Below, piece by piece: positions 54,001 through 60,000 of a DNA stretch of 64,000 nucleotides (positions within the stretch are counted from its first letter, which is position 1; each line of letters starts with the position of its first letter). The stretch is taken from assembly GCA_036785375.1 (NCBI GenBank), contig JAWMAR010000309.1, positions 62,001 to 126,000 on the forward strand, given 5' to 3'. The position numbers are program-made. Source of the stretch: Leucoraja ocellata (taxonomy: Eukaryota).

Positions 54001-57000
54001 AAGGAGACAATGTCAATGTTAGAGTGAATTCAATGAACCTTTACTCACAGTGGGAAGCCAGATTCATAAGTCAGAGGACCACAGTAGTGTGACCTTAGGA
54101 CATGAGTTTCCCGAGGCAGCTCAAGATTGGTCGTCTTATTTTAAAGATGGATAGAGGGCAAACTGTCTTTTGCAGCTTTCCAAACATTGAACATTAAAAT
54201 ATGCTGTCTCTTTATTTTTGATTTCACAAACAGAATTTAAAATGCAATTGGATAAAACAGAATTGAATATTACCGTCTCAGAGAAGGACCTGTTCCAGCT
54301 CAGCTGTAATGTGACCCAACAAACTCAAGATAACTCTCGATTTGCTGTGTACTGGTTTGCTTGGAAGGTCAAAGAAGACATTGATGGGATCGTCAAGGAG
54401 ACGATTCTGAAAGTTGATCACAATTCGGTATTTGGTTTCGAAGCCTTGACGGACAGGGCTAAAAGCATGAAGGACAGATTGCAGTTCGAGAGGCCATCCA
54501 ACGGATTGTACACTCTGACAATACATAATTCAGGCAGAGGTGACACAGGGAATTACTACTGCAACGTAGAGGAGTGGATTCAAAATGCCAACAACATCTG
54601 GTACAAACTTGGAGAGGATGAGTCTGGGCTGCTTACTGTCACTGTTCAAAGCAAAGGTAATTTATCATAGAAATATAGAATGATGACAGGTGGCTATTTG
54701 GCCCATTATGTCCAGTGCAGCTCATACAGAATATGATTCCAACTACACACTGTGCTAAGAGATTTTCCCAACACTGTTCTTAATTAATGGAATATGAAAT
54801 ATAGCACATGGAACATAGAACGGTACAGTCCACAATGTCCATGCCAAACATGATGTCAAAATCAATTAATCTTCTCTGCCCACACATGATCCATATCCCT
54901 GCAAATCAATTTACCTATCTTGGGGCAACACAATGATAGTGTTAGAGTTGCTGCCTTACAGCATCAGAGACCCGGGTTCGATCCTGATTACAGGTGCTGT
55001 CTGTACGGGGTTTGTTCGTTCTCCCTGTGTTTTTTTCTGGATGCTCTGGTTTCTTCCCACTCCAAAGACGTACAGGTTTGTAGGTTAATTGGCTTCGGTA
55101 AAATTGTAAATTTTCTGACCTTGGGTGCTGTCTGTGCGACGTTTGCATATGCTCCCTGTGATCATGTGGGTTTCCTCCGGGTGCTCCGGTTTCCTCCCAC
55201 ATTCCTAAGGCATGCGGGTTTGTGGATTAATTGTCTTCTGTAAATTGCCCCTCATGTGTAGATGGGATAATGTGAAATTGGGATAACATAGAACTAGTGT
55301 AGGGGGTGATTGGTGGTCGGCGCGGACTCGGTGAGCCAAAGAGACTGTTTCCACACTGCATCTCAAAAGCTAAATTATGGCCTTTAAAGATTTATGGAGA
55401 ACATGAAAGGATTTAGACATTTAAAAGGTAATTGAACACCTGTTTCTTCCATGTGTGAGTGACTGACTTGCTGACTTTGCGATGCTCGCTGGAAATAACC
55501 CAACACCCCTTCCTTAGAGCCGCAGTGAAGGGTCAGCTGCATTATGTGACCAGGGCCCTTGGAGTTGGGTTTGAAAATCACAATCATCTGGCCGGGAGAT
55601 AAGGAAACTATTATAGAGCTACAAACACTATAGAATGGAGTCCAATGAAATCCGGCTGCAAAATAATTAATATATTTTATATTACTTCTGAATTTGTCTC
55701 ATTGTATCTGAACTTGTCCCGCTGGTGCATAAAAAATGACTTAATCTGAGAGTCAAAAGTTTATTTTATCATTCTGTACCACCAAGGCATGATGAATTCT
55801 AACCAAATATCTGTTTTTTATGTTTAAAAATAAATGTGAAATATATTAAATTTTATCTTGGATCAATATTGGTATGCGAGTTCAGACACATCTTGTAACT
55901 TTGGCACACTTTTATAGAACATAGAACAGTGCAGAAACAGGCGCCTCGGCCCACAATGTCCGTGCCAAACAAGGTGTGAAGTTAAAATAAACTCCTCTGC
56001 TTGCATCTGATCCAACCCCTTCATTCCCTGCACATCCATGTTTCTATCTAAAAGTATCTTAAACATCACTATCTTATCTGCCTCCACCAACACCCCTGGT
56101 AGTATTCCAGATACCCACCACTCTGAAAAGAAAAACGCTTGCCCCATACATCTCCTTTAAACTTTGCTCCTCTCACCTTAAAGCTATGCCCCCTAGTCTT
56201 TGACAACCTTGGGGGGGGGGGGGGGAGATTCTGCCTGTCTACCCTATCTGTGCTTCCCATAATTGTATATACTCTTATCAGGTCTACCCTCAACTTCCAA
56301 CACTCCAAATTCGTCTAACTTCTCCATATAACTAAGGTACTCATCCAAGAAGCATTCTGGTAAATCTCTTCTGCTCCCTCTCCAAAGCCCCCACATGTTT
56401 CCTATAATGGGGCGAACAGACCAGTGGTGAATCTGTGGAATCCATCGCCACAGAAGGCTGTGGAGACCAAGTCAATGGATATTTTTTAATGCGGAGATTG
56501 ATATATTTTTGATTTATATAAATCCTTTCATGTTCCCCATAAATCTTTAAAGGCCATCATTTAGTTTTTTCGATGCAGCGTGGAAACAGGTGCTTTGGCT
56601 CACCGAGTCGGCGCCGACCACCAATCACCTCCTACACTAGTTCCATGTTATCCCATTTTCACATTATCCCATCTACACGAGGGGCAATTTACGGAAGACA
56701 ATTAATCTACAAACCCGCATGCCTTAGGAATGTGGGAGAAAACCGGAGCACCCGGAGGAAACCCACATGATCACAGGGAGCATATGCAAACGTCACACAG
56801 ACATTTTACCGAAGCCAATTAACCTACAAACCTGTACGTCTTTGGATAAGGAAGAAACCAGAGCATCCGGAAAAAAAGACGGGGAGAACGAACAAACTCA
56901 AACTAGGGACAATCTGGAGTCCAATTAACCTACAAACCTGCATGTCTTTGGGATGTGGGAGGAAATCTGGCACATGGAGAATGTGCAAACTTTACACAGA

Positions 57001-60000
57001 TAGCACCAAAGGAAAGGATTGAACTGAGGTGTCTAGCGCTGTGAGGCATCGGCCCTACCAGCCACACAAATATCAATGTCCAATTTATTTCCTGTCATTC
57101 CCGTTATGCTAATTGATATTTCTTTCCCTTCACGCTATGTCACTAAATTATGAGGCACACACTGTGCCTAAGACAACTCCTTTGTTCTAACTAAAAGACA
57201 CACTGAGAACAGCACTCTGCCCACTCGGCATGTCTTTCATCCAAGGCATTTGAAAGATTCTGGAAATGAATCTGTTGTTATTACCTTGTGCTCCAATGGG
57301 GGGAAAAATAATCAAGAGGGCAAATGTTATTCTGAAATTGGTGAAGAGCTCCTGAAAAATTATTATCTTTAATTTGAGTTTCCTCCAGGAATAGAAGATA
57401 CATTTCATCGGCAGCTGGCATTTAAAAAGTGTAGAGTTACCATAATGTTCTACCCTTTGACATAAACCATGTTATTCTGGTTTAGCTGCCTTAACAACTC
57501 TTGGTTATGCTTCCTATTATGGGGCAAAGAGAACTACACACAATACTCCAAATGCAGCCTAACCTTTACAATCACAGGTCAGACCGCATTTGGAGTATTG
57601 TGAGCAGTTTTGTGCCCAATATCTGAGGAACGATGTGCTGGCATTGAAACGGGTTCAGAGGTTAAGAGAATGATCCCAGGAATGATTTGTTTAACATATG
57701 ATAAGCGTTTACGGCACTGGGCCTATACTCGCTGGCACTAAAAGGATGAGGGGCATTTCATTGAAATGTACCGAATAGTGAAAGGGCTGGATAGTGGATG
57801 GTTCCACTAGTGGGAGAGTCTAGGACCAGAAGTCATACACACAGAATAAATACACATACCTTTGGAATGGAGATGGGATAGAATTTATTTAGTCAGAGAG
57901 TGGTGAATATGTGGAATCCATCGCCACAGAAGGCTGTGGAGACCAAGCCAATGGATATTTTTTAATGCGGAGATTGATATATTTTTGATTTATAAGGGTG
58001 TTAGGGGTTATGTGGAAAAGGTAGGAGAATAGAGTTGCGAGGGAAAGAGAGATCAGCCATGATTGAATGGGGGAATAGACTTGATGCGCCGAATGACCTA
58101 ATTTTGCTCCTATAACTTATGAACAAACCAAAGTCCTATGTATCTATATACACGAACATTATACTTCCTCACATTTTCCGTGTTTAAGGTGCTAGATAAA
58201 TGCAAGTTACAGCAGGTGACAGATGTGCAGCGCTTGCAGTTGGCAGTTCTGTTAATGTTTTTTTGGGGGGGATAATGCCCCAGGGCAGTTCATAGAGGTG
58301 TGCAATTTAAAACCTGTACTTCAGTTTCACATTTCTCTTGGTCATCAAAAAATGAAACCATTCTTTGTCGAGTACAAAACCCAGTAGCGTGGGATTCAAT
58401 AACAGCTACTTTTGATACTCTTTCGCCTGTTTGTTCTGCAACACCGTGGCATCAATCACCGTACATTCTCTCAACCACCCAAGACAAAGTGACTTGAAAG
58501 TGTACCCGATATTGAGCCATACACTGCATGAAAATTGTGTATTCATCAGCATTTCCATTTTATTCATCATAAGATCATAAGACACAGGAACAGTATTAGG
58601 CCATTTGGCCCATTGAGTCTGCTCTGCTATTCAATCATGACTGATCTATTTTTCGCTCTCAACCACATTCTCCTGTCTTCTCCCCGTAACCTTTGACACC
58701 TTTACTAATCAAAAACCTGTCAATCTCCGCTTTTAAAATACCCAATAACGTTGACTTGCTTCCGCCGCCATCTGTGGCAATGAATTCCACAGATTCACAA
58801 CCTTCTGGCTAAATAAAATACATCATTTTATTCTGAGGCTACGCCCTCTGGTTCTAGACTCTTATTTGCATCATATTATCTTGGTTTAGATTTATTATTT
58901 TCACGTGTACAGTAAAAAGCTTTGTTTTGCATGCTACCCAATCAAACCAGATAATAGCATGCATAAATGCTCTCAAGCCGCACTCAAGTGCAATAGGTAG
59001 AGTGAAATGAAAGAGAGTGCAGAATATAAATACTAAGTTTATTTTGGGAACATGAGCCTTGTTACCAATTTGGATTTTGTTTAAATAAAGGCATTTTTGT
59101 GCGGCTGCTGGGAGAGAAAGCCAAAAAGACTGCGTCTGAAACGAAAGCAGAAAATGCTAGAAATAAATAGGATGTCTCGTTAAACAGTGCAAGAAAATTG
59201 ACGATGCCATTTCTGTGCGCATAATCCTTCTTCACAATTAGAAAGTGTGTACTTATAATTGTATCCCAGTTTCTTGTGAGTTGTTAAGGCAGCTAAACCA
59301 GAATAACATGGTTTATGTCAAAGGGTAGAATATTATGGTAACTCTACACTTTTTAAATGCCAGCTGCCGATGAAATGTATCTTCTATTCCTGGAGGAAAC
59401 TCAAATTAAAGATAATAATTTTTCAGGAGCTCTTTACCAATTTCAGAATAACATTTGCCTTCTTGATTATTTCCCCCCCCCCCCCCCATTGGAGCACAAG
59501 GTAATAACAACAGATTCATTTCCAGAATCTTTCAAATGCCTTGGATGAAAGACATGCCGAGGAGGCAGAGTGCTGTTCTCAGTGTGTCTTTTAGTTAGAA
59601 CAAAGGAGTTGTCTTAGGCACAGTGTGTGCCTCATAATTTAGTGACATAGAGTGAAGGGAAAGAAATATCAATTAGCATAACGAGAATGACAGGAAATAA
59701 ATAGGTGATTGATATTTGTGTGGCTTGTAGAGCCACTGCCTCACAGCGCTGGAGACCTCAGTTCAATCCTTTCCTTTGGTGCTATCTGTGTAAAGTTTGC
59801 AGGTTCTCCACGTGCCAGTTTTCTCCCACATCCCAAAGACATGCAGGTTTGTAGGTTAATTGGCCTCTAGATTGCCCCAAGTATGTAGGGTGTGGATGAG
59901 AGAGTGGGATAACATTGAGGTAGTGTGAACGGGTGGACTTGGTAAACTGAAGGCTGTGTTTCCATGCTGTATTTCTAAACTAAACTAAAAGCAAATTTCT

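What the first reader, a model, noticed from the sequence alone, without database searches (positions are those of the whole stretch)
56395..59882. Three-template mosaic insertion creating long inverted repeats beside the TM exon
Seen: a CR1 fragment is broken by a ~1.08-kb insert bounded by a diverged 26-bp duplication (56395-56420 vs 57507-57532). The insert is a patchwork of neighbouring DNA: 96 bp copied directly from 57899-57994, ~380 bp inverted from 55010-55415, and ~600 bp inverted from 59278-59882, including non-repeat sequence. Scattered substitutions in every arm argue against an assembly artefact. Inference: a fossil germline template-switching repair event (MMBIR/FoSTeS or Pol-theta templated insertion). 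It lets the last intron fold into ~380- and ~600-bp duplexes, the longer ending ~146 nt before the acceptor of the transmembrane exon, so ADAR editing or altered TM-exon use (soluble IGSF3) is conceivable.
Basis: partly seen in the sequence, partly recalled or inferred. Interest (0 to 1): 0.72.

Follow-up and report, generated by a model that had tools for sequence, protein, structure and literature searches.

The report
Patchwork DNA insertion in skate IGSF3 intron
An old 1.1-kb patch stitched from three nearby pieces of the same intron sits in the last intron of a skate IGSF3 gene; it is a clean fossil of a known kind of DNA copying accident and shows no sign of having acquired a function.

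Summary
Between a 26-bp duplication (56395-56420 / 57507-57532, 22 of 26 identical) lie 1,086 nt made of three local copies. They are a direct copy of 57899-57994 (94/96), an inverted copy of 55010-55415 and an inverted copy of 59278-59885.

The host is a broken LINE remnant on the minus strand. A paralogue carries the 26-mer only once, so the duplication is real. The sources run on as longer repeat units, so they are the originals. Both lineages carry changes, so the event is old and inherited.

All four junctions lack microhomology, and three carry 1-6 nt of filler. The breakpoint sits at the foot of the most stable DNA hairpin in the intron.

The best reading is one chain of local template switches, or a closely related copy-and-paste repair, triggered at a quasi-palindrome. 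The enzyme pathway stays open.

The intron (54657-60028) is the last coding intron of IGSF3. Its predicted fold holds 362-bp and 579-bp helices. Substitutions show no bias towards keeping pairs (14 G.U against 14 A/C). ADAR editing and soluble IGSF3 remain untested. It is a new member of a known kind, of modest interest.

The parts
54234..54656 (+). Last Ig-domain exon of IGSF3 (phase 1 at both ends); donor GT at 54657
   Evidence: Pfam V-set E=1.3e-7 on this exon alone. Sequence and translation. The same residues occur in the public L. erinacea protein P0001.
54657..60028 (+). Last coding intron of IGSF3 (5,372 nt, GT...AG); about 4,260 nt before the insertion
   Evidence: P0001 reads across the join.
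55010..55415 (+). Source B': two tandem partial SINE-like copies plus about 38 nt of unique flank; template of segment B
   Evidence: The repeat units extend beyond the copied part (54938-55010), which makes this the original.
55917..56420 (-). E1 left piece: 3' part of a 5'-truncated LINE ORF2-tail remnant, broken by the insertion (at least 2 frame changes)
   Evidence: tblastn against the window's own LINE-tail frame, E=1.2e-15 on the minus strand. DNA matches to other LINE 3' parts, including 31866-31606 of the RT-bearing LINE.
56395..56420 (.). Left copy of the 26-bp target duplication
   Evidence: 22 of 26 identical to 57507-57532. Both copies align to one stretch of E2.
56421..57506 (.). 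The whole insert (1,086 nt): filler CC, A, B, filler T, C, filler TTGGTT
56423..56518 (+). Segment A: direct copy of 57899-57994 (94/96)
56519..56897 (-). Segment B: inverted copy of 55415-55010 (23 substitutions in 379 aligned sites; 25-nt and 2-nt gaps)
56899..57500 (-). Segment C: inverted copy of 59885-59278 (27 substitutions in 601 aligned sites)
57507..57532 (.). Right copy of the 26-bp target duplication
57507..57565 (-). E1 right piece: the 5' end of the same LINE remnant
   Evidence: Aligns to the first 46-48 nt of E2 at 79%.
57522..57617 (.). Quasi-palindrome formed by the head-to-head 5' ends of E1 and E2 (core arms 57532-57565 / 57576-57609, 10-nt spacer); the breakpoint lies at its foot
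   Evidence: I13. ssDNA fold -24.4 kcal/mol, z=-6.5. Most stable of 1,055 windows of 101 nt in the intron: -24.6, next best -17.2, mean -7.3.
57576..58122 (+). E2: second 5'-truncated LINE ORF2-tail remnant (at least 1 frame change, 2 stops); holds source A'
   Evidence: tblastn E=1.7e-9 on the plus strand; family matches.
57899..57994 (+). Source A': template of segment A, inside E2
59278..59885 (+). Source C': about 445 nt unique in this window plus the first 163 nt of a SINE-like copy (59723-59989); template of segment C
60029..60279 (+). Transmembrane and cytoplasmic-tail exon of IGSF3, ending in stop TAA 60277-60279
   Evidence: The peptide is 100% identical to NCBI 'IGSF3-like [Leucoraja erinacea]', 90-96% to rays, sharks and chimaera, and about 70% to tetrapod IGSF3.

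Best explanation
This is the fossil of one inherited, copy-and-paste DNA synthesis accident, and it has since been drifting neutrally.

Shown:
- A 5'-truncated LINE remnant (E1, minus strand) in the last IGSF3 intron is interrupted by 1,086 nt.
- The 1,086 nt consist of three copies of sequence lying 0.37 kb downstream (direct), 1.0 kb upstream (inverted) and 2.35 kb downstream (inverted) of the breakpoint.
- All three sources are still in place.
- 26 bp of the target are duplicated on either side of the insert.

Inferred: a growing DNA end stalled at, or a break formed at, the foot of the quasi-palindromic hairpin made by the head-to-head LINE remnants E1 and E2. The end left its template and copied three nearby templates in turn: 57899 to 57994, then the opposite strand 55415 to 55010, then 59885 to 59278. 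It added 0-6 untemplated bases at each switch. It then returned to the original template 26 nt behind the point of departure, which produced the flanking duplication.

This is a local template-switch chain of the FoSTeS/MMBIR kind in the broad sense. The junctions are blunt or carry filler, not microhomologous, so the enzymes involved are not identified.

Consequence, in silico only: the sense pre-mRNA can form 362-bp and 579-bp helices that abut. Together they tie position 55010 (353 nt from the donor) to 59882 (146 nt from the acceptor). No selection for this structure is detectable.
For: - Three high-identity local copies, with E-values from 5.7e-42 to 0.0.
- They are the only long high-identity pairs in the 64-kb window.
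- Direction: each source continues as a longer repeat unit or an intact context beyond the copied stretch.
- The order A(direct)-B(inverted)-C(inverted) cannot come from one inverted duplication followed by deletions, which would give C, inverted A, B (coordinates).
- The target duplication is real: the 26-mer occurs once in E2 and once in each E1 piece.
- All templates lie within 2.35 kb of the breakpoint.
- The breakpoint is at the foot of the most stable ssDNA hairpin of the intron, which ranks 1 of 1,055 windows. Quasi-palindromes are described as stall sites and template-switch hot spots (PMC7202029, abstract only). Germline multi-template insertions, some at quasi-palindromes, are described in humans (PMC8421209, passages).
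- The event is old and real: 52 substitutions in 1,076 aligned sites, falling on both lineages (21 insert, 11 source, 1 ambiguous, 19 without outgroup).
- One event suffices. The uneven divergence also occurs inside the single contiguous segment C (15/163 against 12/438).
- Neutral decay of the helices: 14 G.U against 14 A/C.
Against: - There are 0 nt of uninterrupted microhomology at 4 of 4 junctions. In human germline templated insertions, 138 of 155 and 135 of 148 junctions had at least 1 bp (PMC8421209, passages). About 5% later divergence could have blurred some junctions.
- The flank duplication is more diverged (4/26) than the arms (52/1076); p about 0.035.
- Divergence is uneven: SINE-like parts 7.3%, the rest 2.6%, p=3e-4, and CpG sites do not explain it.
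- There is no clear excess of changes near the junctions. The excess on the insert lineage is weak: 21 against 11.
- The hairpin association is post hoc, from a single case.
- No reads, no orthologous empty site and no genome-wide search could be examined.
Confidence: 0.55

Rival explanations
1. End-joining capture. A staggered double-strand break, with two nicks 26 nt apart at the hairpin foot, was filled in. This gave the 26-bp duplication. The break was then sealed by ligating three pre-formed DNA fragments released from the same stalled or over-replicated region.
For: All four junctions are blunt or carry 1-6 nt of filler, with no microhomology. That is the look of non-homologous end joining; class 2 templated insertions show non-templated additions (PMC5110952, passages). 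The fragment sizes are 96-602 nt. The hairpin at the site is a plausible nuclease target.
Against: All three fragments come from within 2.35 kb, and the sources are intact. The fragments would therefore themselves have to be fresh copies, which needs synthesis anyway. The described class 2 insertions lack target duplications and draw on distant loci (PMC5110952, passages).
Confidence: 0.17
2. Reverse-transcriptase patch. A LINE-encoded enzyme nicked the target, which gave the 26-bp target-site duplication. It primed on local RNA and jumped between three RNA fragments of the locus, adding a few untemplated bases at each jump.
For: There is a 26-bp target duplication. The junctions are blunt, with short fillers. 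The window is full of LINE copies, including one with endonuclease and RT domains. On the minus strand, B and C read as sense intron RNA of the host gene, which would be present at the locus. Class 1 templated insertions with TSDs are ascribed to LINE enzymes (PMC5110952, passages).
Against: Orientation is mixed: A is opposite in polarity to B and C, so RNAs of both strands would be needed. There is no poly(A), no A-run longer than 7 nt, no LINE 3' tail at either end, and no polyadenylation signal on the + strand. The B-C join (59885|55010) is neither a branch-point-to-donor join nor any splice join.
Confidence: 0.1
3. Several independent events: separate duplications or insertions at different times happened to land side by side.
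For: Divergence differs between segments: A 2.1%, B 6.1%, C 4.5%.
Against: The same unevenness occurs inside the one contiguous segment C and follows repeat content, not segment identity. Three hits within 0-1 nt of each other, under one shared 26-bp duplication, are very unlikely.
Confidence: 0.04
4. Assembly artefact: chimeric or mis-joined reads.
For: Inverted local duplications are a known type of long-read assembly error (recalled, not from a call). NCBI labels the gene model 'LOW QUALITY PROTEIN'.
Against: The copies differ from their sources at 52 of 1,076 sites plus four indels, with changes on both lineages. An artefact would give near-identical copies. The window holds no N or gap. 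There is a clean 26-bp target duplication.
Confidence: 0.04
5. A composite transposable element: the three-part arrangement is one repeat family that inserted here with a target duplication.
For: Most of the insert is made of repeat-family sequence. A LINE-tail copy lies next to a SINE-like copy at one other place in the window (14574-14782 / 14785-14983).
Against: That other locus has a different relative orientation and different junctions. Of 75 paralogue HSPs overlapping the insert, 0 cross J1, J2 or J4. The single one crossing J3 is the insert's own offset alignment. Each segment is 88-98% identical to its neighbour but only 65-80% to other family members. About 445 nt are unique in the window. 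No terminal repeats were reported at the insert ends.
Confidence: 0.03

Closest known systems
FoSTeS/MMBIR-type complex templated insertions (human germline 'MMB-TI' events and local multi-jump rearrangements)
   Same: The insertion is copy-type with the sources retained. There are several successive templates close to the breakpoint, in direct and inverted orientation. Synthesis returns to the original template with a small duplication. The site is a quasi-palindrome (PMC8421209, passages; PMC7202029 and PMC7954356, abstracts).
   Different: There is no microhomology at any of the 4 junctions, and fillers are present at 3. The segments (96-602 nt) are longer than the short insertions catalogued there and far shorter than clinical CNV-scale events. 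The host is a skate, and the event is millions of years old.
Templated sequence insertion polymorphisms (TSIPs), classes 1 and 2
   Same: Inherited insertions copied from elsewhere in the genome. Class 1 has a target duplication of at least 5 bp. Class 2 has non-templated bases at the junctions (PMC5110952, passages).
   Different: TSIP templates are distant and single. Class 1 has poly(A) and a TTTT/A site, and class 2 has no target duplication. Here the templates are local, there are three of them in mixed orientation, a 26-bp duplication is present, and there is no poly(A).
Pol-theta (TMEJ) templated insertions
   Same: Templated from flanking DNA, in direct or inverted orientation, with several rounds possible (recalled knowledge).
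   Different: Those are typically a few to a few tens of nt, copied from very close to the break, and primed at microhomology (recalled). Here the segments are 96-602 nt, lie 0.37-2.35 kb away, and show no microhomology.
Intronic inverted repeat pairs (such as inverted Alu pairs) as dsRNA and ADAR substrates, and long-range intronic base pairing
   Same: Two long, near-perfect intramolecular duplexes are predicted in one pre-mRNA. A-to-I editing of endogenous dsRNA is ancient in metazoans (PMC9989829, abstract only). Long-range pairings are associated with pre-mRNA processing (PMC8052449, abstract only).
   Different: The arms here were made by one local copying event, not by independent transposon insertions. 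Both pairs lie inside one intron and flank no exon. No RNA evidence exists, and there is no sign of selection for pairing.

Membership tests
FoSTeS/MMBIR template-switch insertion | Inserted segments are copies; the templates stay in place | tested here: met
   All three sources are present and continue as longer units.
FoSTeS/MMBIR template-switch insertion | Two or more successive templates near the breakpoint, direct and/or inverted | tested here: met
   Three templates lie 0.37, 1.0 and 2.35 kb from the breakpoint; one is direct and two are inverted.
FoSTeS/MMBIR template-switch insertion | Microhomology at the junctions | tested here: not met
   0 nt at 4 of 4 junctions, with fillers of 2, 0, 1 and 6 nt. 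Later substitutions (about 5%) may hide some.
FoSTeS/MMBIR template-switch insertion | Raised point-mutation load from error-prone synthesis in or near the copied tracts | tested here: inconclusive
   Polarised changes are 21 on the insert lineage against 11 on the source lineage (B alone: 13 against 4). There is no gradient towards the junctions. A bias from aligning outgroups to the source is possible.
FoSTeS/MMBIR template-switch insertion | Arises during replication or break-induced replication | not testable with these tools
   There is only the indirect hint of the hairpin at the breakpoint.
Pol-theta (TMEJ) templated insertion | Short insert copied from the immediate flank, primed at microhomology (definition recalled) | tested here: not met
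   The segments are 96, 379 and 602 nt, lie 0.37-2.35 kb away, and show no microhomology.
LINE-enzyme-mediated insertion (TPRT; class 1 TSIP) | Target-site duplication of at least 5 bp | tested here: met
   26 bp, 22 of 26 still identical, and single in the paralogue.
LINE-enzyme-mediated insertion (TPRT; class 1 TSIP) | Poly(A) or element 3' tail at one end, with an upstream polyadenylation signal | tested here: not met
   No A or T run exceeds 7 nt, and there is no AATAAA/ATTAAA on the + strand. Neither end shows a LINE 3' terminus.
LINE-enzyme-mediated insertion (TPRT; class 1 TSIP) | All segments in one polarity, as copied from RNA | tested here: not met
   A is direct; B and C are inverted.
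Class 2 TSIP / end-joining patch | No target duplication; microdeletion, microhomology or non-templated bases; distant template | tested here: not met
   Non-templated bases are present at 3 of 4 junctions. However, there is a 26-bp duplication and all templates are local.
Dispersed composite repeat family | Other copies with the same internal junctions | tested here: inconclusive
   None occur in this 64-kb window: 0 of 75 HSPs from other loci cross a junction. The rest of the genome could not be searched.
Dispersed composite repeat family | Defined termini (terminal inverted or direct repeats) | tested here: not met
   No repeat pairing the two insert ends appears among the 5 direct families and 17 inverted pairs.
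CR1-clade LINE (identity of the broken host element) | Homology to the 3' part of an endonuclease-plus-RT LINE | tested here: met
   The E1 left piece matches 31866-31606 of the RT-bearing LINE (61.7%, E=3e-11) and the window's LINE-tail frame (E=1.2e-15). That LINE has Exo_endo_phos_2 and RVT_1 domains.
CR1-clade LINE (identity of the broken host element) | RT groups with CR1 and not with L1, L2 or RTE | tested here: inconclusive
   The best named hits are bird and turtle RT/endonuclease proteins (45-63% identity), one of them called 'jockey-like'. No source uses the name CR1 and no tree was built. E1's own frame found no protein.
ADAR substrate | Long, nearly perfect intramolecular dsRNA in a transcribed region | tested here: met
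   In silico only. Cofold energies are -675.6 and -1058.7 kcal/mol. The whole-intron MFE keeps 362 and 579 pairs.
ADAR substrate | Clusters of A-to-G differences between RNA and DNA | not testable with these tools
   No transcriptome data can be reached.

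The most novel reading that the evidence does not exclude
The patch may act as an RNA 'splint'. Because B and C are adjacent in the insert, their two helices abut (55010:56897 next to 56902:59882). About 940 bp of near-continuous dsRNA would then tie a point 353 nt from the donor to a point 146 nt from the acceptor of the transmembrane exon. 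In skates this could measurably change how the last IGSF3 intron is processed. Possible effects are hyper-editing, small-RNA production, faster or slower removal of the intron, or use of the TM exon. That would make it a lineage-specific regulatory structure created in a single mutational step.
Probability: 0.06. Interest if true: 0.55.

Novelty: new member of a known kind. Interest (0 to 1): 0.3.

Why it matters
The locus is an unusually legible fossil of a multi-template copying accident in a cartilaginous fish. All three templates, all four junctions, the target duplication and a candidate trigger (the strongest hairpin of the intron) are still readable.

It shows that such chains occur in the germ line outside mammals and yeast. 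It also shows that they can produce blunt or filler junctions where microhomology would be expected, which bears on how these events are recognised in genome scans.

One mutation also created about 940 bp of intronic inverted repeat. That is a way to generate long dsRNA without any new transposon insertion. Nothing so far indicates a function, so its value is as a well-resolved example and not as a new principle.

Tried and rejected
1. One inverted duplication followed by deletions was rejected. An inverted copy of 55010-59885 would give the order C, inverted A, B, not A (direct), B, C.

2. Homologous, in-register switching between the two SINE-like copies at the B|C join was rejected. The copies are about 105 nt out of register, and the SINE core is present twice in tandem.

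3. Read-through of an intron lariat was rejected. The join 59885|55010 lies 143 nt from the acceptor and 353 nt from the donor, so it is not a branch-point-to-donor join.

4. CpG decay as the cause of the uneven divergence was rejected. The difference persists at non-CpG sites: 28/461 against 14/560, p=0.006.

5. Selection for pairing found no support: 14 G.U against 14 A/C.

6. Rfam gave only sub-threshold miRNA-precursor-like matches (26.9-33.5 bits, against gathering scores of 54-100) on the E1/E2 hairpin. I take these as generic hairpin matches.

7. The protein search with E1's own frame found nothing.

8. Naming the SINE-like family led nowhere. My recollection of a 'HER1' elasmobranch SINE/LINE pair is unverified.

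9. The search for IGSF3 together with Leucoraja found 0 papers.

10. Not tried: genome contigs, because it holds only bacteria and archaea. The empty site in related skates and the genome-wide junction search were therefore not done.

Full report
OBSERVATION

- Segment A: 56423-56518 is a direct copy of 57899-57994 (94 of 96 identical, E=5.7e-42).
- Segment B: 56519-56897 is an inverted copy of 55415-55010 (E=1.9e-149).
- Segment C: 56899-57500 is an inverted copy of 59885-59278 (E=0.0).

Global alignments give these counts:
- A: 2 substitutions in 96 sites.
- B: 23 in 379, plus 25-nt and 2-nt gaps in the insert.
- C: 27 in 601, plus a 7-nt poly-G length difference and a 1-nt gap.
- Pooled: 52 in 1,076 (4.8%).

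The flanking 26-mers, 56395-56420 and 57507-57532, share 22 of 26 bases. The window holds no N. In a self-comparison of all 64 kb, 14 pairs reach 88% identity over at least 60 nt. Twelve of those are 60-100 nt repeat cores. A and C are the other two, and B lies just under the cut. The structure is therefore real in this sequence and far beyond chance.

WHAT THE INSERT SITS IN

The interrupted element, E1, is a LINE remnant on the minus strand.
- Its left piece (55917-56420) matches the window's own uninterrupted LINE-tail reading frame at E=1.2e-15.
- It also matches several other LINE 3' parts, including 31866-31606. That stretch belongs to a minus-strand LINE carrying endonuclease and RVT_1 domains.
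- The best named relatives of that RT are bird and turtle RT/endonuclease proteins (45-63% identity), one of them called 'jockey-like'.
- This fits a CR1-clade element, but no source uses that name and I built no tree. E1's own frame found no protein.

E1 is 5'-truncated, has at least 2 frame changes, and carries this one nested insertion. Its neighbour E2 (57576-58122, plus strand) is a second 5'-truncated remnant, with at least 1 frame change and 2 stops.

I aligned the two pieces of E1 separately to E2. They overlap on the same 26 columns, which E2 holds only once. The 26-bp repeat is therefore a true duplication of the target, made when the insert arrived.

DIRECTION AND NUMBER OF EVENTS

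Each source continues beyond the copied stretch as a longer unit.
- B' is part of two tandem SINE-like copies that start at 54938.
- C' runs into a SINE-like copy that extends to 59989.
- A' lies inside E2.

About 20 other loci in the window match these families, at only 65-80% identity. The sources are thus the originals and the insert holds the copies.

The order direct A, inverted B, inverted C cannot be derived from one inverted duplication plus deletions. Three templates are needed. They lay 366 nt downstream, 1,005 nt upstream and 2,353 nt downstream of the breakpoint, in an intron that was then about 4,260 nt long.

No paralogue alignment from another locus crosses any of the four junctions. 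Of 75 HSPs, 0 cross J1, J2 or J4, and the single one that crosses J3 is the insert's own offset alignment.

AGE AND AUTHENTICITY

I used the window's other family copies as outgroups to polarise the substitutions. Twenty-one lie on the insert lineage and 11 on the source lineage. One is ambiguous and 19 have no outgroup. Changes on both sides mean real divergence after the copying, which argues against an assembly artefact.

Divergence is uneven. SINE-like parts show 37/504 differences and the rest 15/572 (p=3e-4). The gap persists at non-CpG sites (p=0.006). The same contrast occurs inside the one contiguous segment C (15/163 against 12/438). It therefore does not call for several events, but its cause is unexplained.

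The flank duplication is somewhat more diverged than the arms (4/26; p about 0.035).

With an assumed neutral rate near 1e-9 per site per year, 2.6% pairwise divergence would mean roughly ten million years. The rate is recalled and uncertain, so this is an order-of-magnitude inference only.

JUNCTIONS AND TRIGGER

A formal test finds 0 nt of uninterrupted microhomology at all four junctions. The fillers are 2 nt (CC), 0, 1 nt (T) and 6 nt (TTGGTT). This departs from human germline templated insertions, where 138 of 155 and 135 of 148 junctions had at least 1 bp (PMC8421209, passages read).

E1 and E2 lie head to head. They begin at the same LINE position, 10 nt apart, and their first 34-48 nt form a quasi-palindrome.
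- As single-stranded DNA, 57520-57620 folds at -24.4 kcal/mol, z=-6.5.
- Among 1,055 sliding 101-nt windows of the intron it is the most stable: -24.6, against -17.2 for the next best and a mean of -7.3 with sd 3.5.
- The point of departure, 56420, is equivalent to 57532, the first base of the core arm. The point of return, 57507, lies just outside the stem.

Quasi-palindromes are described as replication stall sites and template-switch hot spots (PMC7202029, abstract only). This is a post hoc association from one case, but it gives the event a plausible cause.

MECHANISM

Most likely (confidence about 0.55): a nascent DNA end stalled or broke at the hairpin foot. It copied three nearby templates in turn, one on the same strand and two on the opposite strand. 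It then re-engaged 26 nt behind its departure point.

The rivals are:
- End-joining capture of three freshly copied local fragments in a filled-in staggered break (0.17). This fits the blunt junctions but still needs local synthesis.
- A LINE reverse-transcriptase patch with template jumps (0.10). This fits the target duplication and the filler bases. It is contradicted by the mixed polarity, the lack of any tail and the lack of a polyadenylation signal on the + strand. The class definitions come from PMC5110952 (passages read).
- Several independent events, an assembly artefact, or a composite repeat, each at 0.03-0.04.

GENE CONTEXT AND CONSEQUENCE

Seven Ig-domain reading frames on the plus strand, at 11.6, 13.2, 17.9, 20.9, 47.8, 51.1 and 54.2 kb, each match V-set/I-set/Ig_3 models when searched alone.

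The peptide of the exon 60029-60279, also searched alone, is 100% identical to NCBI's 'LOW QUALITY PROTEIN: immunoglobulin superfamily member 3-like [Leucoraja erinacea]'. It is 90-96% identical to IGSF3 of rays, sharks and chimaera, and about 70% to tetrapod IGSF3.

I searched the spliced model exon by exon and left the joined step out. The join 54656|60029 is read from the public protein, which runs straight across it. Both splice sites are canonical and in phase 1. The intron 54657-60028 is thus the last coding intron.

For the sense RNA:
- The arm pairs cofold at -675.6 and -1058.7 kcal/mol.
- The minimum-energy fold of the entire intron (-2727.3 kcal/mol) keeps 362 and 579 pairs.
- The two helices end at 55010:56897 and 56902:59882, so they abut and draw the two ends of the intron together.

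Such dsRNA is the kind of substrate that ADAR enzymes edit across metazoans (PMC9989829, abstract only). Long-range intronic pairings are associated with pre-mRNA processing (PMC8052449, abstract only).

However, the 50 substitutions in the two helices split into 14 G.U, 14 A/C and 22 transversion mismatches. This shows no bias towards keeping pairs and is the pattern of neutral decay. ADAR editing is plausible if the gene is expressed. A role in TM-exon use or in a soluble isoform has no support here.

COMPARISON AND NOVELTY

The closest known kind is the local multi-template insertion of the FoSTeS/MMBIR family. This case meets the copy-type, proximity, mixed-orientation and return-to-template features. 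It fails the microhomology feature. It does not fit Pol-theta insertions, or either TSIP class, as defined.

I file it as working like a template-switch chain, with family membership in the strict MMBIR sense unproven. It is a new member of a known kind. I found no paper holding both IGSF3 and Leucoraja (0 papers).

LIMITS

No skate or ray genome, reads or transcriptomes could be reached. The collection genome contigs holds only prokaryotes and was not used. Paper supplements were not consulted.

The empty site, the genome-wide uniqueness of the junctions, read support and RNA editing all remain unchecked. Unnamed database hits were not fetched or used.

Noticed in passing
window 57507-57621 (E1 5' end 57565, E2 5' end 57576): Two LINE remnants lie head to head. 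They begin at the same position of the LINE, 10 nt apart, yet the rest of the two is too diverged to align as DNA (best 21 nt, E=0.016). This may be an ancient palindromic duplication or a coincidence of truncation points. The hairpin draws sub-threshold miRNA-precursor-like Rfam matches (26.9-33.5 bits against gathering scores of 54-100).
   Followed up: partly
window 56519-57500 against 55010-55415 and 59278-59885: Copy-to-source divergence is about three times higher in the SINE-like parts (37/504) than in the other parts (15/572). The difference persists at non-CpG sites and within the single contiguous segment C. The cause is unknown; ectopic or arm-to-arm gene conversion is a candidate.
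   Followed up: partly
window 55104-55128 (absent from the insert copy at 56803/56804): The copy of B lacks 25 nt that lie exactly at the boundary between the two tandem SINE-like units of the source. This is either a later deletion or a skip during copying.
   Followed up: no
window 56210-56226 and 59473-59487: There are long poly-G runs. One lies inside the LINE remnant E1. The other lies in source C', and its copy in the insert is 7 nt shorter.
   Followed up: no
window about 22700-27000, + strand: A large retroelement lies in the 26-kb intron between the Ig exons at 20.9 and 47.8 kb. It has an RVT_1 domain (24398-24856) and a tyrosine-recombinase (Phage_integrase) domain (25908-26882), a DIRS-like architecture.
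   Followed up: no
window about 31300-34900, - strand: A long LINE copy has endonuclease (33189-33803) and RVT_1 (32287-32775) domains spread over several reading frames. Its closest named relatives are bird and turtle RT proteins.
   Followed up: partly
whole gene (protein P0001): NCBI labels the matching Leucoraja erinacea IGSF3-like model 'LOW QUALITY PROTEIN'. The public model therefore needed a correction somewhere in the gene. I did not locate it.
   Followed up: no
window 14574-14983: A LINE-tail copy and a SINE-like copy abut here too. Their relative orientation and junction differ from those in the insert, so this is not a second copy of the patchwork.
   Followed up: partly
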